In this document: in pieces, positions 2,401 to 64,000 of the stretch
Layout of the letters: every line of letters begins with the position of its first letter
Position numbering within the stretch: position 1 is the first letter of the stretch
Assembly: GCA_964016885.1 (NCBI GenBank)
Contig: OZ024740.1
Coordinates: 42,904,001 to 42,968,000, forward strand
DNA from: Eledone cirrhosa
Taxonomy: Eukaryota
DNA length: 64,000 bases
Reading direction: 5' to 3'
Notes under the pieces: generated by a model
The model's input: only the letters and a program-made list of their open reading frames with translations
The model's database searches: none
What the model was told of the DNA's origin: nothing
Translations under genes and position numbers: made by a program

Positions 2401-2440
<40 letters not shown>

Positions 2441-2820
2441 CAAAATGTTAACAAATGAAAAATATTCGCATAAACAAAATATAAACTTTATTATATATAT
2501 TTCAAAGGTACTGTGCTGTTTTTTTCAGTACGTCCACATCAGACAAAATATATGATTTGATATATGTCATACCGCTACGGTCTTGATTATTCAATTCCCG
2601 TATTGGCATTGAAATATGTATAATAAAGTATAAATTTTGATTATGCGAATATTTTTCATTTGTCAACAATTTGAATAATATTAAAAACTCCAGGAAAACC
2701 TTGCAGTTGAGTGCTTCTAATCTATTGTAAAACTGTATTCGTTGAGTAATCAACGAATCATTTTAATCTCTGGTTATATATATATATACATTCATACATA
2801 CGTATATACATTTGTAATTA

Positions 2821-2860
<40 letters not shown>

Positions 2861-2960
2861 TACATACGTATATATATATTTGTAATTACGCATATATATA
2901 TATAACTGAAAAACACGAGGAAGTTTCGTTTACATATGAAAACATATTTATTGCGTTTCG

Positions 2961-3052
2961 ACTTGTCACGCGCGTTTCGCAGAGGATATGCTCAATGTGA
3001 CTTATAGATGTTATGGACCATAATCCAGTATAGATCTGCTCCTCAGACTGGT
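2961..3052 (-). ncRNA. Type I hammerhead ribozyme-like motif, decayed
   Basis: accagt CTGAGGA gcaga..tctgc GAAA cgcgc GTG acaagt; palindromic stem III acgcgcgt; non-permissive GUG triplet. Confidence 0.6.
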
Positions 3053-3155
3053 GATGTAGCAAAAGATATATTTTTGTTATGCTATGTGGGCCGAGAAGGT
3101 ATATATATATATATAGGCCCACATATCACAACAAAAATATATCTTTTGTAGCATC

Positions 3156-3247
3156 ACCAGTTTGAAGAGCAGATCGATACTGAAGTCGGGTCCATAACCC
3201 CTATGGTTCACATTGGGCCAATTCTCTGAGAAACGCGCGTAAGAGGT
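3156..3247 (+). ncRNA. Type I hammerhead ribozyme-like motif, decayed
   Basis: accagt TTGAAGA gcaga..tctga GAAA cgcgc GTA agaggt. Confidence 0.55.
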
Positions 3248-3458
3248 CGATACGCAATAAATATTTTTCATCTGTAAACGAAACTTCCTCCTGTTTTTCT
3301 GTTATATATACACATACATACACACACATATATACGTATGGGTTATATCGAACATTAATAATAATGTTCAATTCGTTTGTAAACAAACGGCCCGATTTGA
3401 AGCTATGTTCGATATAACCCATACGTACATACTCTCTATATATGTGTCTGTATGTATA

Positions 3459-3501
<43 letters not shown>

Positions 3502-4179: not shown

Positions 4180-4181
<2 letters not shown>

Positions 4182-4540
4182 GCAGAGGTTATATTTAATT
4201 TGTTGGGATTCAACAAGCTTTACAATTTGTATAACTGATATAAAGCACTCAACAGTTTAGTGGAGTAAATATACAATATATTAACAAATGGAAACTATAT
4301 TTATAAAACCATATTTATTCTATTATACATATTTCAACTTGCACCAAGGCAAATTATGTGCGCTTTCATCAGATAAAATACAATACAGATTTGTTTTATT
4401 AATAAATATCGACATACCCTGAAAAAAGACAACCTTAACGGTTGGAGCTTCCTGCCTTGGTGGCCCTTGAAATATGTATAATAGAATAAATATGGTTTTA
4501 TAAATATAGTTTCCATTTGTTAATATATTGTATATTTATA
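4180..4540 (-). mobile_element. HHR-bearing pLTR-like element with inverted partial copy
   Basis: 4267-4337 inverted at 4467-4539; 4180-4390 is homologous (reverse complement) to 58670-58878. Confidence 0.75.
4316..4380 (-). ncRNA. Type I hammerhead ribozyme motif, core intact, AUA triplet
   Basis: tattttat CTGATGA aagcgcac..gtgcaagtt GAAA tatgt ATA atagaata; 8-bp stem I with one GU pair. Confidence 0.7.
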
Positions 4541-4977
4541 TATATATATATGTATATATATCAACTAGGAATTGATTGACATATATATATAAAATAAACA
4601 CATGAAACAATCACAGGAGATAATTTGTAAAGTGTGTAAGCACACACAGCTTGGTAGGTAACTAATTAAAGTTTAACTAGAACTTTAAATATAGATACCT
4701 TTTAAAATGATTAATCTTCCTTGTATATATTCCATTAATGAAATATATTTCACCATTAATCGTAAATCACAGTAGTCAAATCCCGGATTTTTAACTAGAG
4801 ATAAGATTTAACTATCTGTGTTCACAGCAATTGCAAATCTTCGAATGAACCGTCGCACGTGTTGCATTTTTTTAAAAATACACACATCGTACCAGCGTCA
4901 TCCAGTGGCGTGAATATCGACAGCTAGAAATGGCAGCCGAGTCCTTTCAACTGAGTTAGCTCTACAATTATATCCCA

Positions 4978-5143
4978 AATTAAATTAAGGGTATCATGTT
5001 CTAGATATGCGCCATATCCACTGTAGAATATGCTCAAAGATTCCAAATTGATATACAATTCTCTGATCTATTCATTGGAATATTTGAGCATATTCTACAG
5101 TGGATATGGCGCATGTCTCAGACATGACACCCTTAATTTAATT
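4978..5143. repeat. ~165-bp imperfect hairpin (MITE-like or fold-back)
   Basis: aattaaattaagggtatcatg..gctcaaagattcca pairs with tggaatatttgagc..catgacacccttaatttaatt. Confidence 0.8.
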
Positions 5144-5195
5144 GTGTATATATATATATATATATATATATCGTTTACGATTTCACAGAACTTAT

Positions 5196-5901: not shown

Positions 5902-6021
5902 TTATTCTGATGAAATGACAGTAAATAATAACATTGAAATATTGAATGTCTGCATAACTAAAAGTTTGTAGATAGCAGCTGTTTTAGGTTATATAACTGT
6001 TATAGAAACACGTGTCAATAA
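5902..6021 (+). ncRNA. Type I hammerhead ribozyme motif, core intact, long stem II insert
   Basis: ttatt CTGATGA a atgacagt..actgttat a GAAA cacgt GTC aataa; stem III palindrome acacgtgt. Confidence 0.8.
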
Positions 6022-15954: not shown

Positions 15955-16428
15955 TGACTCTCTGGACTCTTTCGGCCTCCACCCGCTTTCCTATCGCCAC
16001 AATGCCGGCCGCCTTCCACGCCATGTTGCCCTCAGCGAGGTCATAAAGCATGGCTTGGACGCTGCAGGCTCCCCTTCCCAGCTCGAGCCGGTGGAGCTGG
16101 ACCGAGGGGACGGCAAAAGCCAGATGGCATGATCATCTTCCCGTTCCGTGGTGGCAAACCCCTCGTCTGGGATGCCACATGCAGCGACACTTTCTCCAGC
16201 CGCAACCTGGTGCAGTCTGCGACTAACTCAGGTTCTGCTGCACGTCAGGCTGAGGAGGCCAAACTCTCCAAATACCGGTCGCTCTCCGACAGATTTGCGG
16301 TCGTACCCTTGGCAGTGGAGACTTCTGGTGTCTTCAGCCCTAGGGCTACATCCCTACTCACAAGCATAGGCGCTGAGCTGGCCAGCCGCAGGTGTAAGCC
16401 TCGCGAGCTGAAATGGCTTTTCAATAAC
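15955..16428 (+). mobile_element. CRE-clade non-LTR retrotransposon fragment (restriction-like endonuclease region)
   Basis: RHVALSEVIK..LEPVELDRGDGK../DGMIIFPFRGGKPLVWDATCSDT..AEEAKLSKY..PLAVETSGV; frameshift near 16120; high GC. Confidence 0.8.
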
Positions 16429-17059
16429 GAGGTGTAGAGAACCACTAGAGTGGATAATATATAGTCTACGAAAAATGTGGAAAATATATAATAATTAAAA
16501 GGTAAATTAAAATGTACAAACCCATTTATATAAGTATAAAACACCTGGACAATCTCAAAGAAGAGAATGTTTTGCCATAAACAGTGTTGACACCATACCT
16601 TCTCAGGGCTCGTCAACAGGTGTAAAAAAGATATAGCGTGGTAGACTTTATATTCTCTACTCTAGTGGTGCACTAGCCCTCATAATTGAAACATACGCAT
16701 TTTTGTGTTTTCTTCTCCGTATACTGTATTATGAAGAGCCCGGTACTTATTCCTTGAGTTCATTAAATTACAGGGGATTAACGCAAGTCTTTAACTCCGT
16801 TTTTTACTTGATATATATATATATATATATATAGTAAGGGGCATTAGAAGAGGTAAATATTTATATTATACTAGCGGAGCTACCCGGCTTCGCTCAGTGT
16901 TAAAAAGCTTATTTAGAAAAGAATAATATTAACATTTTAATCGTTATTTAAAAACTTCTGTAATTTAGTTTCTATTTTTTAGATTTTAACATTTATCTTT
17001 AAATGACTGAATGACTGACGAATTTAAAGAAAATTCGTTATAAGAACATTTAATTTGTT

Positions 17060-18920
17060 TTACTGAAGTGCTTTTGGATACACAATGTTTTTTTGTTTTT
17101 CCTTCTGGTGCGTACACGAATAAATCAGAAGGTTTACCGACGCGTGAGAAAGCCACATACAGCTGTCCATGTGAGAAGCATGGATTTTCTAAATTTAGTC
17201 CACACACTTGTAGCGATTGTCATTGTGCTTTGTTGATAGTCATTGCAAAGGCGAGTCGCACCGGAAACTGCAAACGTTTGAAATCGAATGGCGTATCTGT
17301 TGGAATGATTGGGATGCGTGGCAAGAGTACATCTTCTCCTTTAAATTTTCCATTTAAAATTGTAGCCTCGATGATATTGTTCATCGTCTTTTTCACTGAA
17401 AGTCTGGTACCGTTGCAAAGTTGTGGTGGATTGATGTTTCGGAGAAGGATGATAGGCACGCCAATTTTCAATGTTAAAATGTGCGGTGGCATGCCTGGCA
17501 AATCAAGTGAATTCAAGAATTCAATTGGATAATTGATAATTTCATCTTGATTCATTACAGTATCGATGGACTTATACGTTATCGCTTCACCTGGTATTTC
17601 GTTTTGAATGCTGAAATTAATGGCATTGACATCGGTGTTTTTGGCTGCTAATATAGCACGTACACTGAGCCACTGATGATTTTTGTAATGCTGCGCAATA
17701 TTTGGGAACACTTTGTGAATCAGTTCGTCTCTGGTTGCCGTGATTCTACAGAAGTTTGTTGGCAATGTGATACATTTTGTGGAATCATCGATTACCATTT
17801 TCCCATTCCCAATATCCAGCAATTGTTTTGTGAAACGTTCAGCGGATGCGTCATTTTGTAGTTGTACACGCATATTGTTTTTGAAAGTTAATTTCTGTAC
17901 GTGTCGCCATAAAACTGATGATTTGAGACATGCATTAAGCTCATCAGCGGGTGTTGATCGCGGTATAACTGGTAGAGTTTGTCGAAAATCACCAGACAAT
18001 AAAATGAGAGTGACACCGAAGAGCTGTTCATTTCCTTTCAAATCTTTTAGCGTATTATTAAGCGCTTCCAATGATTTTTTGTGCGCCATAGTACATTCGT
18101 CCCATATAATGATTTTACATGATTGGAGTACTTTACCTATACCAGAATTTTTGGTAATATTGCATGTTGATGTCTCAGCGATTTGCATATTCAATGGCAA
18201 TTTCAGGGCTGAATGTGCTGTTCGGCCACCATCTAAAAGAGTTGCCGCAATTCCAGATGATGCGATTGCCAGTGCAATATTATTTTCTGATCGTATAGTT
18301 GCCAAAATAAGTGAAATGAGAAAAGTTTTGCCTGTACCACCGGGCGCATCTATAAAATACAATCCGCCGCTTTGACTTATAATTGCCTGCATAATTTGGT
18401 CATATACTATGCGTTGTTCTGGTAGCAATTTGGGAAGATTCGTTTGAACAAATGTACCCAATTCGGCGACATCAAAGTTTGTTTCTCGTTGCAAATCACG
18501 ATCGAAAATGTCGTTTACAGATCGATTCGGCGCAGGCATTCCCAATTGTACCAATGTTTTGTTAGCGATTGCTAAACATATGACCTCAATGGAAACCAAT
18601 GCTTCATTATACACATTTGGTGTGAATTGAATATTCATATTTTGATTTGTTGCACGCAAACGATGTAGGATGTCTTCACTCATGTAGTCTTTATATTTTT
18701 CCCAAAGATCTTTTGGATTTGATGGGAAGCACGTTGTCAATATTATTGAGACTAATGTGCGTATTTGCTTTGGTCGAGCAGTATTCGATGCATCAGCGAG
18801 TGAAGTGTCCCAATGTCCATCATTTTCAAGAAGATTTAATTCTTGGCAAGCTTCACGATAAGTGGCACATACTTGACCGTTTACTGTTCTCAATTCTTGG
18901 AATGATGTCGGTCCACGTAT
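17060..18920 (-). pseudogene. PIF1-family helicase of Helitron 1
   Basis: IDAPGGTGKTF, IIWDECTMAHK, GDFRQTLPV, LCNGTRL, FAMTINKAQ*QSL, HGQLYVAFSRV; premature stop at 17220 and terminal frameshift. Confidence 0.93.
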
Positions 18921-19048
18921 GTGTCCAGGTCAGGAAAATAAGGACAGACGAAATGAAGATATCAAATTACAGCACTTAGTTAAGGGCTAGCTGAAAAAGA
19001 ATTCCCTGTAATGGGAGTGGAAGGGAAGTAATGTGAAACAGACACTAT

Positions 19049-19160
19049 ACTAATTCTATTGAAATTATATTAAATTAAAGAGAGAATTTACTAATTCTAT
19101 TGAAATTATATTAAATTAAAGAGAGAATACTAATTCTATTGAAATTATCTTTAATTAAAA
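19049..19160. repeat. ~40-bp tandem repeat x3 inside Helitron 1 5' region
   Basis: actaattctattgaaattatattaaattaaagagagaat repeated. Confidence 0.9.
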
Positions 19161-19829
19161 AAATTTCACACTCGCTCTTTCACTCACTCTTTGTCTATAC
19201 GTTGATTTCTCTTTCTCCGTTTATAGCACTCTCTCTTTGTCTATACGTTGCTCTTTCACTCTCTCTTTGTCTATACGTTGATTTCTCTTTCTCCGTTTAT
19301 AACTTTAGAGACAGTCTAATATAGGGAGTGGTTCAAAGCAGCCAGACTACTCGCTCTTTCACTCTCTGTTTGAATATACGTTTATTTCTCTTTCTCCGTT
19401 TATATTTTTAGACAAACAAACAAACATACATTCATTTTTATATATATAGATTATTTAATTTATTTTGAAAAATTGGTTGAATTTTACTTGTTCTGCTTAT
19501 CTTAATATTAATGTTCTGGTATATCAAATTAATACCATTGAACAACCTTGAATCATAGACAACATATGTATTTCTAGGGGTACTTAGTATCTTTGGACAT
19601 ATTAACTTCATTCATTATACTCCGTTATGTAGAGAACAAATCTGTTGTTCTATTTAGCTGCTATTTTTTTTAGTAGTAATTATAGACAGCAAGTCTGTGG
19701 TTATTCCGCTTTTACTTCGGTCCGGTTTACATACGGGTCACTTTTACGACCTTTCAGACCTGTATTAGCTGGCAGGAGGTCATATATTTTATCGTTCCTG
19801 GGTCGTTTAGCCCTAGAAAAGGAAAATGC

Positions 19830-19907
19830 TTCTCTGATGAGCTTTGGTTTTCCATCAGATATCCATTGGATTCTGGGGTTTTACAAAGCGAAACTGATCA
19901 GTAAGGG
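19830..19907 (+). ncRNA. Type I hammerhead ribozyme, apparently intact
   Basis: ttct CTGATGA gctttg..caaagc GAAA ctgatca GTA aggg; stem III palindrome actgatcagt; predicted cleavage after 19903. Confidence 0.88.
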
Positions 19908-19991
19908 CCATTAGAAGAGGTAAATATTTATATTATATTTTTTAATTTATTTTGAAAAATTGGTTGAATTTTACTTGTTCTGCTTATCTTA

Positions 19992-20113
<122 letters not shown>

Positions 20114-23034: not shown

Positions 23035-23664
23035 TGTTATGTCTGATGTTACTTACCTCAACTACATCGCTTGTTGTTTATCATTCTTTTTATCTTTCTC
23101 GCTATTTGCATTATTTCTCGTTCCTTATGGGATACTTCTCTTATATATTTCTTTATTTTTTATTTAGGTACCTTTGTATTTTATCTTAAGTTAATTTATT
23201 GTATGGACGAGATACACTGAAGAAGGTTTGAGACTTTTTATCTTTTCAGACACCTTTAATTGACTTAGGTAACTGCCACTGTAATACATCCTTGAAATGT
23301 TTATAGTGAGCTAACATGCCAAATCGTTTTCCCAGGGTGAGGGTTTGGGCAGCTAGAACACTACAGATACTACCCGTCCCTACGTCTTGTCTTAGCGGAC
23401 TTGTTCCACAATGCAGTCGGGACGTACAGACAACATGGAGGCCCGTTATGCAATAAAGTTTTGAGTCAAGCTCAAATGATTGGATGTATAACTCCCTTGA
23501 AACATGTGTAAGGAAATAAATATGGTGTAAAAGATAAAATATAATCTTCCCGTCTTGTTAATATATAAATGTAGAAGATGTGGATGTATGTAGGTGCGTA
23601 TCAGCGTATCAACCAAGCTATAAATGATGGTATTTATCTGTTGAGTTCTCATCCGTTTTAGACA

Positions 23665-33500: not shown

Positions 33501-34340
33501 TCTTGTCCTAGCCCGTCAGCATTCATCTCCTCAGTGGCCGTATCTCTGTTCCAGGTATTATTTATTTCAGCATTAAGATCATTGTCTGCTTCGGATGGTT
33601 CCTCCGTTCTCTCGACCTCATCACCTTCATTTCCCACTGGCTCGTTTGCCTGGCATACTCCACTCTCCATTTCCTAGCTAATCTCTCTGCTCAGTTTCTC
33701 CCGTTCCAGCTCGCTTATCCACCCATTAGTTCTTATTACCCGAGCCTGCCCGGCCAATTTTTGTTCATCTAATTTAAATAGACCAATCTCGTTCCAGATG
33801 TTATGCATCCGTTTCCTATAGCCTTTCTCCTTGGGGTTACTCTTCAGGTAACATTGCATAACAGTTCTATTCAATTCTTTCGTCCAGTTGGTTCTGGTCC
33901 CTTTCCTTCTTCTTCTTCCTCCGACACCCGCAGTATTTGGTTGACAGCCAGGTCCCCTCTGCTGAGCCAGGGAGCACCTATTGGGTGAGAGTCTGTCACA
34001 TGACATTCTAGTCTCCACTTCACCGTTATTCGAACTGTTTAGGTTCGACATTTAAACACTCTTATCGAGGATTGGCGAATGTATGGTTACATAAACACCG
34101 GTGATTTCGTCACTCCCGGTGATTTTTGTGTGGCATTATCACGTTGTAGACGAACATAAATAAACAAACAAACAAACAGGCAGCATAAAAACCCCAAAAA
34201 TGAATAAGCTTAAGTTTCATTGTAATGTAATGTTTGAATGTCTGACATTACTATGAAAATTATGCTTATTCTTTTTTTTTTTTTTTTGCCTGTTTGTTTG
34301 TTTGTTTATTTATGTTCGTCTACAGCGTGATAATGCCATT
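30549..34340 (-). mobile_element. R4/Dong-clade family a, copy B (near full length, stops and frameshifts)
   Basis: ORF remnant 30623-34051: SPGPDG, NYRPITCL, WIDYKKAFD, GIFQGDSLSP, FMDD, RHD, NRPD; highly similar to copy A. Confidence 0.92.
34130..34340. repeat. ~210-bp palindrome at the 5' end of Dong copy B
   Basis: ggcattatcacgttgtagacgaacataaataaacaaac.. pairs with ..gtttgtttatttatgttcgtctacagcgtgataatgcc. Confidence 0.88.
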
Positions 34341-46332: not shown

Positions 46333-46338
<6 letters not shown>

Positions 46339-46482
46339 CGTCCCTTCACGCACAAGGCGCCAAGGTACGCATGTATTGTCCAACCAAGTGCCAATGTGGT
46401 TCAATGGCGGGTTAATAAATTAGTAGGTAAAGTCAATTTTTTAAAATTTACTTTGAAACTTTTTCATTATTTACTAAACCTT

Positions 46483-46488
<6 letters not shown>
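46333..46488. mobile_element. Rearranged fragment of the ~485-nt HHR family (inverted body piece + 3' end) between (TA)n tracts
   Basis: 46333-46422 is the reverse complement of ~63575-63665; 46421-46488 matches 63977-64000 and 63515-63560. Confidence 0.8.
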
Positions 46489-46546
<58 letters not shown>

Positions 46547-49856: not shown

Positions 49857-52005
49857 CTATATATTGGGTTTAAAGTTTTGGAAGGAGTGTCGGAAGCGGT
49901 GCTGGCATGACGCGAACACTTCTGATGTTTTATTAAGGAGGTTATGGTTAGAGAAGATAATAGTATGGGTCTCTAGTAGACAGAGGTTACAAAATTTATT
50001 AGGTGGTTTGTACGATGTCGCTTTACCTACCACTTTCCATTTAAGTGTTTCAGATCTATTTTTAGTTTTTAGATAGTGTATGTAGCTAGATAGTGGAGTG
50101 GAATTGCCTAGACTGTGTTTTTTGAAAGAATGGAGGTGCGAATTGCATCTGGTTTTGAAGCAGTTTGAAGTAGAGCCTATATAGGTTTCAGAAGAGTTGC
50201 TAGTTGTGACGGTGCATGAGTATATGATATCATTGATTAAGCATTTTTTATCTAAAGGGCAGGTTCTATTAGAATTACAGTTACAATTATTTTGGATGTT
50301 AGCCTGCCGGTTATTATGTTGTGTAGAAGTCTGGATGGTAGCTGTAGGATTATGGTTATGGGGGTTGTCGATCCCAGCGTTATTGCTTACACTATTGCTA
50401 TTACTATTATTACTATTGTTATCAGGGATAGTTGATATAATGTTATTTTGAAGGTTTACCCCCTGTTGTGATTTTGTTTGTTGGAAGTAAGAATTAATTT
50501 TTCTTTTATTGCTACTAGCTATCTGGTATGCTATGTTAGGCGTGGTAGAGTAGGAGATTTTAATTGTGTTTTTGTTTAAAAGGCTATGGTACTTGTGGCC
50601 AGATGGGAAGTGTTTATCTAGGAGTGAGAAGAAAGCCTTAGGTAGGTTGGTAGAGACGTTTAGATTGAAAGGAGGGTTGAAAAATGTATTATTTCTTCTT
50701 CTATTTTTGTTTTTTATGTCTGGTGAGTTGTTTCCGTTTATGGTACTATGGTAACTTCTGTGGTGTGGGTTACGTTTGTTGGCATCCTTCGTATTAGTGT
50801 GTGTGTGGTTGCTATTCTTATTACTAATTTTCCTCATGGACATATTGTGCGAAATAATGTTGTAGCTATGTGTTTTTGTAGGTAGGAACTCGATCTCTAT
50901 ATTATGGCCTGATCTAGCTAATGCCTGATTATAATATTGCGAGTTTTTGCTAAATATGTTTACGTCATAGGATAGATTAGAGATTCTATTGGATACTCCC
51001 TTAGAGATAGAGTTTAATATTGATCTAGGGTGGTTAGACTTGGTATCTACGTAAATCAGTTTTTCGTTAGGTTTATGGAAAGGTGTATATGTCCTTGAGT
51101 CTAGGTAGAGGGTGGCGTCTAGGAAGTTAACGTTTTTAGTGTTTTTGACTATGGTGATAGTAAGTTTATAGTTTTTGAAAGTCTTGTGCAATAGTTTTCT
51201 AGTTCTTTCTATATTGAATTTTTTATAGTCTATAAGTAGAAGTGCATCATCGCGGAACAAACCACCGTTGAGGTATGGAAGGTCCTTATGGATTTCGTTA
51301 AGTAAATATAGGCCGACCAAATCAGTGACCTGCGCCGAGTCACTAGATCCCATGGTTATGTCGAAGTTGTTTTGCGTATCCTTGCGGGTCCATAATTGGT
51401 CTTCAAACGTGATTACGGTTTTACGGGCCGCACGTATGACATCAATCTGAGGTCTAGTCAGGTCACTATTGTCATGGCCATGATTAGTGCCTTATTTAAT
51501 AGGATAGGGGAAATAGAGGTGTAGTATGAATTGATATCAACTTGAATACATTTTTTATCATTGTTTTCCTTGATATCTTTGAACCATTCAATAACTTCAC
51601 CCGTATTTCCCCATTGTTTAAGGTATATCTTGTTTTTAATCTGTGGGATGATTTTATCTAAAATTTTCTTACTGATAATGCCAATGTCAGACTTGGAAGG
51701 GCAGATAAGTGTAATCGAGGGGTTGCTAATGAAGTCCTCCTTATAGTCCTTCAGAGAGAATCTAGGGGGGTTCAGGGTATATGGTTGTGTATGTCTCTGA
51801 AGTCCTAGTTTGGACACTATATTATAGCCTTCCATATTAATATCTTCCAAGTTTTTCATAGTAGTTTTCTTGTAGCTTTTATGTAGTTCATTATATATAA
51901 ACTTTCTATATGTATTATAATCTAGGCTGTATATGTTATTAGTTTTGTCCGCATGTACAATAATTTTATTACTAGTTTTGAATTCATTAATACAGGTGTT
52001 AAGTT
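49857..52005 (-). mobile_element. Penelope-like retroelement 1 (RT + GIY-YIG endonuclease), 5'-truncated, disrupted near 51455
   Basis: ADKT, QVDINSYY, MGSSDS, FRDD, VNFLD, SNHP; CNC..CPL..CL, IIYSC..YIGST..R..H..E GIY-YIG. Confidence 0.9.
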
Positions 52006-52278
52006 ATATATGCATGTGTGTGTGTGTATGTGTGTATTTTAGTATGTGTGGGTGCTTACTCTGAAGTGTGAGCAGACGTGTGAAGTACTGAACCCAGCAT
52101 GACTCCATTGAAATGTGTAGGACGGAAAATGGTTGATGAACCGTGTGGCAGCAGATACTGACCAGAACTTGTGAAGAGTAAAAACAGCCAATGGCATGAC
52201 AAGAATGGAAATAGGGTTGTTTGAGGGGTTTTTTGATGATAACACCCCGGTGATAAAATTTGCTCCGGACGAAACACC

Positions 52279-52374
52279 CGTGTCTGAAAGAACCCGACCC
52301 GCAGAAGTAGAATCAGACAGATCCATACAAGGACCATGACTCGAGCTACATGCCGGCGAAACATTGGTAACACG
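52279..52374 (+). ncRNA. Type I hammerhead-like motif, decayed, in a non-coding element (52040-52412) abutting (TA)n
   Basis: cgtgt CTGAAAGA acc..ggc GAAA cattg GTA acacg; perfect 5-bp stem I. Confidence 0.5.
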
Positions 52375-52411
52375 AAATGCATCAGATGCATCACTGATTT
52401 TTCGTTTTCTT

Positions 52412-53089
<678 letters not shown>

Positions 53090-58571: not shown

Positions 58572-58680
58572 CTCCTCTATTGAGCCATCCGGATAGTTGA
58601 CTATCCGGATGGCTTCCAAAAACAATGGCTGCATTTTAATAGGGTACGTCAAAGCTTATTTGTAAAACTGTTATATATTG

Positions 58681-58745
58681 TATTTTGTCTGATGAAGGCA
58701 TACCATAATTTAATTTGGTATCCCTGAAATATGTATAATGAAATA
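58681..58745 (+). ncRNA. Type I hammerhead ribozyme motif, core intact, AUA triplet
   Basis: tattttgt CTGATGA aggcatacc..ggtatccct GAAA tatgt ATA atgaaata; element runs to (TA)n at 58878. Confidence 0.78.
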
Positions 58746-58873
58746 AATATGGTTTTATAAATATAGTTTCCATTTATTAATATCGTATATCTACTCCAAA
58801 TACTTGTCGAGTGTTTTATATCAGTTATAAAAATATTTACTTGTTGTATCCCAACAATTTTAAATACAGCTTT

Positions 58874-58876
<3 letters not shown>

Positions 58877-59167: not shown

Positions 59168-59463
59168 GATTAAAAGTTTAACAAGGTTCATTGAATTAAT
59201 CAATGAATAAAGTTTTACAATAGATTAGAAGCACTCAATAGAGAGGTTTTGTAGTTTTTTGTTTATATTTATTACTTGTCTTTATATAAAATTATTATAT
59301 TTATTATTATATATTTTTATACATTTTCATACGTGCCCTCTTTATTATATATAGTTTTTCATGTTTCAACTTATGGTATATAAATATTGACTTTTGTTAT
59401 AACTAATCACTGCCAAGACTGTATTTGAACCATCAGCACAGTCGAGGTATGTCAGACATCAAT

Positions 59464-59528
59464 TTATTTTATCTGATGAGGACGTACTGATGAAATAGCT
59501 CAGTACTGACATATGTATAATAAAATAA
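59464..59528 (+). ncRNA. Type I hammerhead-like motif with GAAA>GACA
   Basis: ttattttat CTGATGA ggacgtactga..tcagtact GACA tatgt ATA ataaaataa; perfect 9-bp stem I. Confidence 0.65.
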
Positions 59529-59746
59529 TAAAATATATTTGAGCACATGAATGTCTATATTTATTAATATTTTGAAGTAATATTATATATATATATATAA
59601 ATATATATATTAGAAAGTGAGGTTTTTTTACAAAATGAAAAATAACCGAGGTGTCCTACACGAGTGAAAGTATAAAGAAAAAAAGATGAAATCGAAAATG
59701 CAAGTGGAGTCTTATTTTAAAAAATATATATATATTTATTTGTTTC

Positions 59747-60539: not shown

Positions 60540-62413
60540 TGGAAGATGATTCTATTAGTAGAAATGGGGGAGGGAGTTGTGTGTGTGTATATGGGTGTTA
60601 TGTGTGTGGGAGTATGTTAAGATGGAGAGAATATATATTTTGTGTGTGTGTATATAAGTGTGTAGGAAAGTGATTCTATTAGTAGAAATGGGGGAGGGGA
60701 GTTGTGTGTGCGAGGGTGAGGGTTGTTATGTGTGTGTATGGGTGTTATGTGTGTGGGAGTATGGTTAGCATGTTAAGATGAAGAGAATATATATATATAT
60801 TGTGTGTGTGTGCGTGTGTGTGTGTGTAGGAAAATGATTCCTTGATTAGGAATATTTTTGAATAAACATATTTTCCTTACTTATTCGTATTTGTTCTGTT
60901 GTATTGTCAGTGCAAACGTATGTTAAGGTTTATTTAGTCCGGGTTTTTATTTTCTAAAGTAGAAGGTGTTATGTGTGTGTGTATGTATCTGTTTGGATGG
61001 TTAGCATGTTATGTTGTTGACATAATGTATATTAAACCATATTTAATGCTGGTCTATATTTTTGAATAAACATATTTTCCTTATTTATTCGTATTTGTTC
61101 TGTTGTATTGTTAGCGCAAAGGTAAAATGGGAAGACTTGGAATTTGGGTGTCTTATTACTTGCGCATATGTCTAGATGTGCGCTTAATGGTATCTGTCTC
61201 GTGGTTTGATCTCGTAATTGTTGGCGATGAACTGTCATTCTATTTCTGAGTGTGAGTTTAGTTTGTCCTATATAATCTTCATGGCATAAACTAGATTTTT
61301 GATGAGCAAGTGAAGTGATTTTTTACAGTAAAATTGTGTCCTGATTTAAATGTATACGTGTTGCCTTCAATGAGGTGAATGCAGGTTCCACAATTAGAGC
61401 GACCACATTTTTTGACACTTGGTTGTGGGTTTGTGGCAGGTAATTTGGCATTGGTGAGTAATGTTTTCAGTGATTTCGGTTGTCTTTTGCTTTTGATTAT
61501 TTTGTGTGTTTCAAGGGCTTTTTCACCTTGGGTTTTGTTTTAGTAGTGGGATGTTCTTGTGAATAATGTTGTAAGCTTCCGCATTTCTTGGGCTGTGTGT
61601 TGAGATATATGATAGAATATTGGACATACCTTGACTTTGTTTCTGTTTTCGTAATTCATCAATGCCTATTGCTTTAGCCCTTTCTATTCCATTATTTATT
61701 AGTAATAGTGGTTACTCTCTTTCGAGTAGAATTTCCTTTAATTCTTGAAGTCTTTTATTTCGCGTTTCATAATTGGAGACAATTGTGCAAATTCTTCTTG
61801 CTAGGTTAAAAGGAATGTTCGTCTTCGTGTGCTTTGGATGGTTGGAGGTCAATAGCAGGTATTGTTTGGAATCTGTTGGTTTGTAGTGTATGTCAGTTTC
61901 AATATTTGTGTCTTTTTTTAAGATTAAGATGTCCAGAAATGGGAGTTGATCTTGGCTGTATTCCATTGTGAATTGGATGTGGTTATTGATGCCGTTTATT
62001 AAGTTTTTGAATTCCTTCAGTTGGTCGAGTGTGTGGGACTAAAGAATGAGACAATCATCCAAGTAGCGTTTCCAATTCTCTGATAAATATTTGTAGAAGT
62101 TCAATCCGTATTTTGATTTGGACTGTTCATATATCTGGACTTCTAAGTATGCCATGACTAAGTTTTAAGTAAAAAGAAATTCAAACACTCATATATGAAA
62201 AAACAACCTGTGACCCCCCCCCCCCCCCCCCCCCCTTGTCTGAAGAACTTTTATAACGCGAATTGGCGCGAAATTTATTATAATTATTGACCAACCAATC
62301 AAATTACTTCTCGAAAAACCTGGCATTTCGAGCCACTTTTTCCATATAAAACAAGTAACATTCAGAGACCAACCAGATGTGAGAAAAACCACAGACCCTC
62401 CATCTCAACTCTA

Positions 62414-63165: not shown

Positions 63166-63199
63166 TTTTATACATATACACACACACATATATATATAT

Positions 63200-63251
<52 letters not shown>

Positions 63252-63273
63252 ACATATATATATATACATCTAT

Positions 63274-63338
<65 letters not shown>

Positions 63339-63406
63339 CAAGGTTTAGCAAATAATGAAAAAGTTTCAAAATAAATTTAAAAAAATTAACTTTACTTACT
63401 ATAGTT

Positions 63407-63490
63407 ACCTTTACCGAATCGGTTTCGAATCTCAAAAATAAACGGAGACCATACGGCCTTCGTTGCAAAGAAAGATGCTCGTCAGAAGGT
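63407..63490 (-). ncRNA. Type I hammerhead ribozyme, core intact
   Basis: acctt CTGACGA gcatct..agattc GAAA ccgattcg GTA aaggt. Confidence 0.85.
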
Positions 63491-63889
63491 TCTTTTCATT
63501 CGAAGAATATAAAAAAATTTATTTTGAAACTTTTTCATTATTTGCTAAACCTTGATTATATATGTTCTGGCTCGTTAATTTATTAATCTGCCATTGAACC
63601 ACATTGACATATGGTTGGACAATACATGTGTCCCTTAGCGCCTTTTGCGTGTAGGAACACATATCCTATTATTACTATCCTCCTCTAAGTTGAGAAAAAA
63701 AATTTGGTCATTCCGACTACTGCTAGCGATAGTGGTGGCCGATTGACCTACCCCCCTCTGCCTCTATCTTTACTTTCGGCCCTTGAAAAAATTGATTCCA
63801 CTTCATTTACTCTCATCTCGGGAACAGTTTTGGATAGCGCTAGTTCGTAATTTAAATTCAAGAATTTTATATTCTTCGAATGAAAAGAT

Positions 63890-63970
63890 CCTTCTGACGA
63901 GAATCTTTCTTTGCAACGAAGGCCGTATGGTCTCCGTTTATTTTTGAGATTCGAAACCGATCGGTAAAGG
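63890..63970 (+). ncRNA. Type I hammerhead ribozyme, apparently intact
   Basis: cctt CTGACGA gaatct..agattc GAAA ccgatcg GTA aagg; stem III palindrome accgatcggt; predicted cleavage after 63966. Confidence 0.9.
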
Positions 63971-64000
63971 TAACTATAGTAAGTAAAGATAATTTTTTAA

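What the first reader, a model, noticed from the sequence alone, without database searches (positions are those of the whole stretch)
63545..63575. 3' ends map to an internal TA-like patch: candidate microhomology-primed (TA)n targeting
Seen: in upstream repeats the sequence runs through ccttgattatata-tgttctgg (63550-63570) and cttaatat-taatgttctgg (19501-19519). Terminal copies stop at exactly that patch and merge into genomic (TA)n (63335, 46485, 19995). Inference: reverse transcription starts internally where the RNA's UA-rich patch pairs with nicked (TA)n DNA, which would explain the targeting and the lack of poly(A) tails or TSDs.
Basis: partly seen in the sequence, partly recalled or inferred. 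Interest (0 to 1): 0.7.

Follow-up and report, generated by a model that had tools for sequence, protein, structure and literature searches.

The report
Penelope element priming patch beside hairpin
Small ribozyme-carrying jumping elements of the Penelope type end at a short internal TA stretch at the foot of a conserved RNA hairpin and run into genomic TA repeats, which suggests the nicked DNA pairs briefly with the RNA to start copying, although a second end site shows that this stretch alone does not explain the targeting.

Summary
All three named junctions (63336, 46486, 19992) leave the element at an internal TA patch and continue as (TA)n. The elements are non-coding, hammerhead-bearing Penelope-like (PLE) derivatives with 484 and 487 nt monomers. 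The combined P is 0.0002-0.014, or 0.016-0.13 without A. Junctions lie within -5..+1 nt of a hairpin (H1). Patch and H1 recur, read by eye, in published (TA)n-targeting Hydra-clade consensuses from three other phyla. All five such ends also join (TA)n, with no clear patch, and one 5' end does too. So the patch probably assists priming at a site set by RNA structure, while the endonuclease probably picks (TA)n. Target-site duplications are invisible here, not shown absent. Internal initiation and (TA)n preference are published. The patch-plus-hairpin anatomy was not found in nine literature searches, and it contrasts with non-homologous priming reported for Poseidon.

The parts
63557..63563 (+). 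Family A internal patch, 7-nt perfect TA alternation, +75 to +81 after the hammerhead cut site; site-1 junction
   Evidence: longest alternating run of the monomer; mean P(unpaired) 0.74-0.78
63564..63599 (+). Hairpin H1 of family A: 4-bp outer stem, 2-nt 3' bulge, 4-bp inner stem; abuts the patch
63626..63662 (+). Hairpin H2 of family A; the second end site (from copy C) maps about 4 nt past its foot (63666)
   Evidence: covariation not significant with 3 sequences (105 of 500 shuffles as high)
63515..63998 (+). Family A forward monomer, 484 nt, 36% GC, no ORF of 120 aa or more; continues past the window end
63890..63970 (+). Type I hammerhead-like motif of the forward A copy; predicted cut after 63966
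   Evidence: descriptor match with 4+7+4 bp stems; no Rfam hammerhead match
63337..63514 (-). Inverted, 5'-truncated A arm with its own hammerhead (63490-63407); ends at the patch; joined head-to-head to the forward arm over about 5 nt of microhomology
63188..63336 (.). Mixed (TA)n tract joined to the A inverted arm
46423..46485 (+). Copy C forward arm, from about cut+10 to site 1; followed by (TA)30 at 46486-46545
46333..46422 (-).
19451..19991 (+). Family B: 487-nt monomer plus terminal segment; hammerhead 19830-19907 (cut after 19903); ends at site 1 into (TA)60 at 19992-20111
   Evidence: 52% identical to A, nhmmer E 1e-9 to 3e-7
19505..19508 (+). Family B internal patch (4-nt alternation), ending 4 nt before H1
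   Evidence: P(unpaired) 0.94 circular, 0.65 linear
19513..19543 (+). Hairpin H1 of family B (same outer stem and bulge, 6-bp inner stem)
16834..16870 (+). 5' stub of the B insertion, starting 3 nt upstream of the hammerhead cut position, preceded by a 23-nt (TA)n at 16811-16833
   Evidence: 36 of 37 nt identical
16871..19450 (-). Helitron (TC...CTAG ends, between A and T, PIF1 helicase ORF) inserted later into B
   Evidence: end motifs recognised from established knowledge
2437..2774 (.). Family D inverted pair: left arm ends at site 1 (+55), right arm reads through a 4-nt patch to site 2 (+152); both ends in (TA)n
4181..4536 (.). Family E inverted pair: right arm ends at site 1 (+56; 2 nt shared), left arm reads through H1 (4266-4247) to site 2
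58641..58876 (+). E-like single arm with hammerhead and H1 (58793-58812), ending at site 2 (+139) in (TA)n
59168..59583 (.). D-like inverted pair: right arm ends at site 1 (+64), left arm at site 2; arms diverged, patch comparison ambiguous
2905..3302 (.). Family F: two 86%-identical arms pointing outward from a central (TA)8, both ending at +61/62 in (TA)n; no read-through copy
49857..52003 (-). Broken autonomous PLE ORF with Hydra-clade marks (DKT, CxCx5C, CxxC, CxH): candidate type of helper; link to A/B/C not shown
   Evidence: no nhmmer match between its flanks and A/B/C

Best explanation
A, B and C are non-autonomous PLE derivatives, most likely mobilised by a Hydra-clade protein. Step 1 (inferred from clade data): the GIY-YIG endonuclease nicks a pre-existing (TA)n on both strands. 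Step 2 (two end sites shown in DNA; RNA structure predicted): the protein binds a structured module of about 80-110 nt downstream of the hammerhead and can start reverse transcription at either edge, at the 5' foot of hairpin H1 (site 1) or just past hairpin H2 (site 2, the PLE tail). Step 3 (inferred): at site 1 the RNA offers an exposed UA patch, and the nicked (TA)n end pairs with 2-7 nt of it. This sets the register and probably the efficiency but not the choice of target. Step 4 (structure shown, mechanism inferred): two cDNAs primed from the two nicks join head-to-head, giving inverted pairs with one site-1 and one site-2 end. More-than-monomer copies come from a tandem or circular template, so no poly(A) is copied, and any TSD is hidden in the repeat.
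For: Shared alternation of 7, 4, 4 and 2 nt against null means of 0.9-2.9 nt; P(sum of 17 or more) 0.0002-0.014 over four nulls. Divergence points sit at 0, -4, -5 and +1 nt from the H1 foot but spread over about +58 to +92 from the hammerhead cut. In circular folds the patch is the most exposed alternating run in both A (0.78; 1st of 5) and B (0.94; 1st of 11). The site1-site2 module folds better than shuffles (z -1.1 to -2.9 in 7 of 7 copies). 4 of 4 same-family inverted pairs with both ends visible (C, D, D-like, E) have one end of each kind. By eye in the supplement of PMC8557442: 3 of 3 long-ended Hydra consensuses (coral, sea cucumber, sea louse) carry an alternating run of 5, 7 and 6 nt ending 16, 4 and 2 nt before an H1-shaped hairpin, and a fourth begins with H1 and ends in a 6-nt alternating run. 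Distances from hammerhead to consensus end in 24 tabulated Hydra families: 10 at 25-42 nt, 2 at 58-65, 11 at 80-148, 1 at 350. Four matching nt suffice for L1 priming (PMC3649969 abstract).
Against: Without family A, which prompted the finding, P rises to 0.016-0.13; one-per-group pairs give 0.0004-0.43. The families are related, so the tests are not independent. E shares only 2 nt. In linear folds the patch is not the most exposed run in A or B, and D's patch is paired in one fold and unpaired in another. H1/H2 covariation is not significant, and RNAalifold did not recover H1 in either group or H2 in the D/E group. The H1 descriptor gave 23 hits in the window, only 4 at the expected place in these elements, and it missed D. 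The only PLE tested in vitro starts at non-homologous RNA sites (PMC11167929). No sequence link ties A/B/C to the Hydra ORF in the window.
Confidence: 0.55

Rival explanations
1. No pairing. The protein and RNA fold alone set both start sites, as in Poseidon, and the endonuclease alone picks (TA)n. The patch is a by-product: local AT richness, an old target remnant fixed at a tandem junction, or the element's own DNA cut site used to build tandems.
For: Site-2 ends join (TA)n in 5 of 5 cases with no clear patch. Local AT content is 71-78%. E shares 2 nt. PAc primes without homology and cuts its own pLTR (PMC11167929). (TA)n bias is attributed to the endonuclease linker (PMC8557442).
Against: Combined excess of microhomology. 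Patch-to-H1 spacing is kept in A and B at 52% identity and, by eye, in other phyla, which argues for selection rather than a random-length remnant.
Confidence: 0.25
2. One reading: pairing of the UA patch with nicked DNA itself determines both the 3' end and the (TA)n targeting.
For: In A the junction is the longest alternating run of the monomer. EN-less PLEs attach to telomere overhangs assisted by complementary repeats next to a hammerhead (PMC8557442 introduction).
Against: B passes over 5- and 6-nt runs for a 4-nt run. Site-2 ends and B's 5' end also join (TA)n. E shares 2 nt.
Confidence: 0.13
3. Telomerase-like synthesis: the RT copies the UA patch repeatedly, so part of the flanking (TA)n is made by the element instead of being a pre-existing target.
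For: PLE RTs are the sister group of telomerase RTs (PMC8557442 abstract). A short exposed template bounded by a protein-binding hairpin resembles telomerase RNA (own knowledge). Some site-1 tracts are long and nearly pure (60 nt at 46486, 120 nt at 19992).
Against: (TA)n also lies at B's 5' end and between F's 5' ends. Site-2 ends have tracts without a known template. The tract at A's junction is mixed and looks old. Several tracts are shared by two unrelated insertions.
Confidence: 0.07

Closest known systems
Hydra-clade Penelope-like elements (Craig et al. 2021, PMC8557442)
   Same: (TA)n insertion, canonical hammerhead near the 3' end, short and long end classes, and an H1-shaped hairpin after a TA run (by eye). 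An ORF with Hydra marks lies in the window.
   Different: A/B/C encode no protein. Their ends lie further from the ribozyme (+75 to +89, and about +184). In the passages read, the paper attributes targeting to the endonuclease linker and does not mention the patch or hairpin.
Poseidon PAc from green anole (Frangieh et al. 2024, PMC11167929)
   Same: Internal initiation at two adjacent sites downstream of the hammerhead cut (first at about +85 to +92), both strands cut and extended, RNA determinant lying 3' of the start site, tail between the sites.
   Different: PAc starts in an AC-rich stem-loop not homologous to the cut DNA and prefers ATT; its tail is 30-40 nt. Here site 1 has 2-7 nt matching the target, the target is (TA)n and the tail is 80-110 nt.
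Non-LTR retrozymes (Cervera and de la Pena 2020, PMC7229834; Li et al. preprint 10.64898/2026.07.22.740005)
   Same: Non-coding, low-GC monomers with a type I hammerhead and more-than-unit genomic copies; proposed to be PLE derivatives.
   Different: Monomers of 484/487 nt exceed the quoted 150-450 bp. There are no two consecutive complete same-strand ribozymes in the window, and the copies have PLE-style inverted arms.
EN-less PLEs Athena/Coprina, and L1 priming
   Same: Primer-template pairing at initiation: complementary telomeric repeats next to a hammerhead; 4 or more matched nt for L1.
   Different: Athena/Coprina use chromosome ends and have no endonuclease. L1 pairs on the terminal poly(A), not on an internal patch.

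Membership tests
PLE-derived (pLTR-type) element | Type I hammerhead in the terminal repeat | tested here: met
   Core plus three stems by descriptor in A, B, D, E. Stems I and III covary across 9 copies (0 of 500 shuffles as high; related sequences inflate this). Rfam gave no hammerhead match. Cleavage untested.
PLE-derived (pLTR-type) element | Partial tandem (more-than-unit) copies | tested here: met
   A period 484 nt, B period 487 nt
PLE-derived (pLTR-type) element | Inverted 5'-truncated copy joined head-to-head | tested here: met
   A, C, D, D-like and E insertions; B has none
PLE-derived (pLTR-type) element | Optional tail at one end (30-40 bp in the literature) | tested here: met
   One long and one short end in 4 of 4 pairs with both ends visible; length 80-110 nt, longer than described
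PLE-derived (pLTR-type) element | Target-site duplication | tested here: inconclusive
   Flanks are (TA)n on both sides for B and C; a duplication would be invisible
Autonomous PLE | RT plus GIY-YIG ORF within the element | tested here: not met
   No ORF of 120 aa or more inside the A or B monomer
Hydra clade | Protein marks DKT, CxCx5C linker, no CCHH, CxxC and CxH | not testable with these tools
   A/B/C have no protein. The separate ORF at 49857-52003 has DKT, CxCx5C, CxxC and CxH; RWK lies in its missing N-terminus.
Hydra clade | Insertion into (TA)n | tested here: met
   4 of 4 A/B/C 3' ends; not specific, since many Naiads share it
Hydra clade | Terminal sequence shared with an autonomous partner | tested here: inconclusive
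   No nhmmer match to either autonomous PLE remnant in the window. Shared H1 shape with published consensuses seen by eye only.
Non-LTR retrozyme (active, Li et al. definition) | Two or more consecutive tandem units with complete hammerheads | tested here: not met
   A: one forward and one inverted; B: one complete plus a 3' stub. A runs off the window, so its full state is unknown.
Non-LTR retrozyme | Monomer 150-450 bp, GC under 50% | tested here: inconclusive
   GC 36% and 33% fits; lengths of 484 and 487 nt are slightly above the range
Non-LTR retrozyme | Expressed as self-cleaved circular RNA | not testable with these tools
   No RNA data available

The most novel reading that the evidence does not exclude
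(TA)n-targeting PLEs carry a telomerase-RNA-like module: a short exposed UA template/alignment patch bounded by a conserved protein-binding hairpin. The RT uses it to pair with nicked (TA)n, and may copy it repeatedly and so lengthen the microsatellite. PLE microsatellite targeting would then be partly RNA-programmed and retargetable by changing the patch, and these elements would be a source of the (TA)n that fills such genomes.
Probability: 0.15. Interest if true: 0.85.

Novelty: new variant of a known kind. Interest (0 to 1): 0.5.

Why it matters
How PLEs find microsatellites is named as an open task in PMC8557442. The only in vitro PLE study calls non-homologous internal priming unique to PLEs. 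A conserved patch-plus-hairpin at the start site of (TA)n-targeting families would show that at least one clade uses primer-template pairing at an internal site, linking endonuclease-bearing PLEs to telomere-attached PLEs and telomerase. It also names two small RNA features that can be mutated in an existing assay. If the patch is incidental, the finding reduces to known PLE anatomy in new non-autonomous families.

Tried and rejected
Rfam gave 0 matches at gathering scores over the window and no hammerhead family at E up to 5 in the A and B regions, so the ribozyme call rests on a descriptor. Single-sequence folds of 8 ribozyme regions were no better than shuffles (z +0.3 to -1.4). Pfam did not recognise the Hydra-like ORF. 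The homologue search gave 503 hits with no informative names, so the clade call rests on motifs from PMC8557442. nhmmer found no A/B/C copies beyond those listed and no link to either autonomous remnant. Covariation for H1/H2 was not significant, and RNAalifold failed on the D/E tails. A specificity control using (C)n- and (CA)n-targeting Chlamys consensuses was inconclusive: one supplement search showed a few ends and no read-through sequence. Inverted pairs G (4969-5152), I (3303-3463) and 34131-34338 were left out of all counts because no hammerhead was found in them. The descriptor hit at 5902-5975 was set aside as probable chance. In the table arithmetic two rows were dropped (Penelope-18_HMa, 5' motif only; the antisense row of Penelope-13_HM), leaving 24. 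Genome-wide junction mapping could not be done: the open DNA collections are prokaryotic, and the metagenome and viral collections stayed unchecked. 'No TSD' was rejected as evidence. A MITE reading of the inverted pairs was rejected because the arms are unequal, carry ribozymes and point their 3' ends outward.

Full report
Observation. The cited strings are at the cited places. At 63337-63514 an inverted arm ends in (TA)n exactly where the forward copy reads through a 7-nt TA alternation (63557-63563); the 42 nt before it are identical in the two copies. At 19992 the terminal B copy leaves the element after a 4-nt alternation seen at 19505-19508, with 51 of 51 nt identical before it. The copy ending at 46485 (C) is 57 of 63 nt identical to A and ends in the same register, but it has no read-through copy of its own across the patch.

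What the elements are. A and B are non-coding monomers of 484 and 487 nt, 52% identical (nhmmer E 1e-9 to 3e-7). Each carries a type I hammerhead-like motif with the conserved core and three stems. Stems I and III covary over 9 window copies (0 of 500 shuffles as high, a control that related sequences can beat). Rfam did not match them. They occur as partial tandems with inverted, 5'-truncated arms joined head-to-head, which is the PLE layout described in PMC8557442 and PMC3846280. B is split by a Helitron (16871-19450). Its true 5' end is at 16834, 3 nt upstream of the ribozyme cut position and next to another (TA)n. The window also holds a broken ORF with Hydra-clade marks (DKT, CxCx5C, CxxC, CxH) and a remnant with a Neptune-like cysteine linker (label from PMC8557442 passages and own reading). 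Neither shares terminal sequence with A/B/C. I suspected a cephalopod host from recalled repeat features; this was not tested.

Self-comparison and a ribozyme descriptor revealed further families, D, E and F. Their 3' ends fall at two sites. Site 1 lies +46 to +89 nt after the cut (9 ends). Site 2 lies +139 to about +184 (5 ends). This is the known PLE tail and matches the two in vitro start sites of Poseidon (PMC11167929), though the tail here is 80-110 nt. 14 of 15 ends examined abut (TA)n (the miss is a weak, old E-like fragment near 23552), against a background of 1.9%. The list is partly ascertained from TA flanks.

Is the microhomology more than chance? Four families have a read-through copy close enough to measure: A 7 nt, B 4, D 4, E 2. 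The null places a random breakpoint in the same sequence and joins it to (TA)n. The sum has P 0.0002-0.014 depending on region and phase rule. Without A it is 0.016-0.13, and one-per-group pairs range from 0.0004 to 0.43. TA content alone does not pick the site: B has 11 runs of 4 nt or more and uses a 4-mer.

Structure picks the site. Terminal and read-through copies part at 0, -4, -5 and +1 nt from the foot of a hairpin, H1, with a 4-bp outer stem and a 2-nt 3' bulge (D's version is imperfect and was missed by the descriptor). C's site-2 end lies 3 nt past a second hairpin, H2. The module folds better than shuffles in 7 of 7 copies (z -1.1 to -2.9). In circular folds the patch is the most exposed alternating run of A and of B, but not in linear folds. 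Covariation with 3-4 sequences is not significant, and the H1 descriptor is loose (23 window hits, 4 at the expected place).

Outside evidence. I read parts 1, 2, 52 and 53 of 59 of the supplement of PMC8557442; the sequence comparisons are by eye, not computed. All six new Hydra consensuses are listed as (TA)n-targeting. The three that extend far past the ribozyme (Hydra-2_Amil, Hydra-2_Ajap, Hydra-1_Crog) each show an alternating TA run of 5, 7 and 6 nt. These end 16, 4 and 2 nt before a hairpin of H1's shape, whose outer stem differs from A/B by a paired change in two cases and has one mismatch in the third. A run of 6 nt or more that close to a random position occurs 0-4% of the time in the window's elements; 2 of the 3 meet that. 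Hydra-1_Ajap begins with H1 and ends in a 6-nt alternating run. Hydra-1_Obim ends in a 5-nt run and shows no clear H1. Hydra-1_Amil is short-ended and shows neither. Tabulated ribozyme positions put consensus ends in a short and a long class.

Mechanism. My best reading (0.55) is that the endonuclease selects (TA)n, the H1-H2 module positions the RT at two internal start sites, and at site 1 a few nt of UA pair with the nicked end and set the register. Shown: the junction positions, the two sites, the (TA)n association, the tandem and inverted layout. Predicted: the hairpins and ribozymes. Inferred: pairing, helper identity, template form (circular templates were proposed in PMC4209133). Rivals are no pairing at all (0.25), patch-determined targeting (0.13) and reiterative TA synthesis (0.07). 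Absence of poly(A) follows from any internal start, and TSDs cannot be judged inside (TA)n.

Literature seen. PMC11167929: main text through the start of the methods (parts 1-2 of 4) and supplement file 1 (figure labels only); files 2-4 were not read, and Fig. S2 may bear on tail ends. PMC8557442: sections 6 and 11, passages, and the supplement parts named above plus two searches. PMC3846280, PMC4209133, PMC7229834, PMC9977147, PMC13282606, PMC12602865: passages. Preprint 10.64898/2026.07.22.740005: part 1 of 5, supplements not seen. PMC3649969 and PMC7265360: abstracts. Nine searches and these readings showed no statement of an internal UA patch or the H1 hairpin in (TA)n-targeting PLEs. Arkhipova 2006, Evgen'ev and Arkhipova 2005, Gladyshev and Arkhipova 2007 and Repbase entries were not read and may hold one.

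Verdict. Internal initiation, the tail and the (TA)n preference are known. The likely new element is a conserved patch-plus-hairpin at the first start site, which gives a direct test of an open question. New variant of a known kind; interest 0.5.

Noticed in passing
window 46333-46485: C's two arms do not overlap: the inverted arm covers only the tail (patch+13 to site 2), the forward arm cut+10 to site 1. This fits twin priming on a single ribozyme-cleaved RNA. The D and E arms overlap and do not fit it.
   Followed up: partly
window 16834 and 46423: The 5' ends of B (cut-3) and of C's forward arm (about cut+10) lie at or near the predicted hammerhead cut, hinting that cleaved RNA is used in vivo; two cases only.
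   Followed up: partly
window 63550-63553 vs 63890-63893; 19497-19500 vs 19828-19831: The 4-5 nt just before the patch repeat the 5' strand of hammerhead stem I in both A and B, so the post-cut strand can form a long alternative hairpin: a possible switch coupling initiation to ribozyme folding.
   Followed up: partly
window 16871-19450 (-): Helitron with PIF1 helicase ORF nested in family B, which dates B as older; a second Helitron-like region lies at about 54.2-58.6 kb.
   Followed up: partly
window 49857-52003 (-): Frameshifted Hydra-type PLE ORF with a long asparagine-rich insert before the endonuclease linker, like the N-rich inserts reported in rotifer Penelope ORFs (PMC3846280).
   Followed up: partly
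window 52040-52415 (+): Degenerate hammerhead-like element opposite the Hydra ORF's 5' end, ending in a (TA)n of about 670 nt; its relation to the ORF is unknown.
   Followed up: no
window 60800-62200 (-): Broken PLE ORF with a CxxC..CxxC linker (Neptune-like) and a 69-nt direct repeat at its 3' end.
   Followed up: no
window 3303-3463, 4969-5152, 34131-34338, 16419-16691: Other short inverted-repeat elements, some ending in (TA)n or (ATT)n, with no hammerhead found; possibly Naiad-type ends.
   Followed up: no
window 58583-58614: 32-nt palindrome just upstream of the E-like arm: either a head-to-head PLE junction or a Helitron-type terminal hairpin.
   Followed up: no
window 23493-23565: Weak E-like fragment (nhmmer E 0.025) ending at a different 7-nt alternating run about 10 nt upstream of where H1 would start.
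   Followed up: partly
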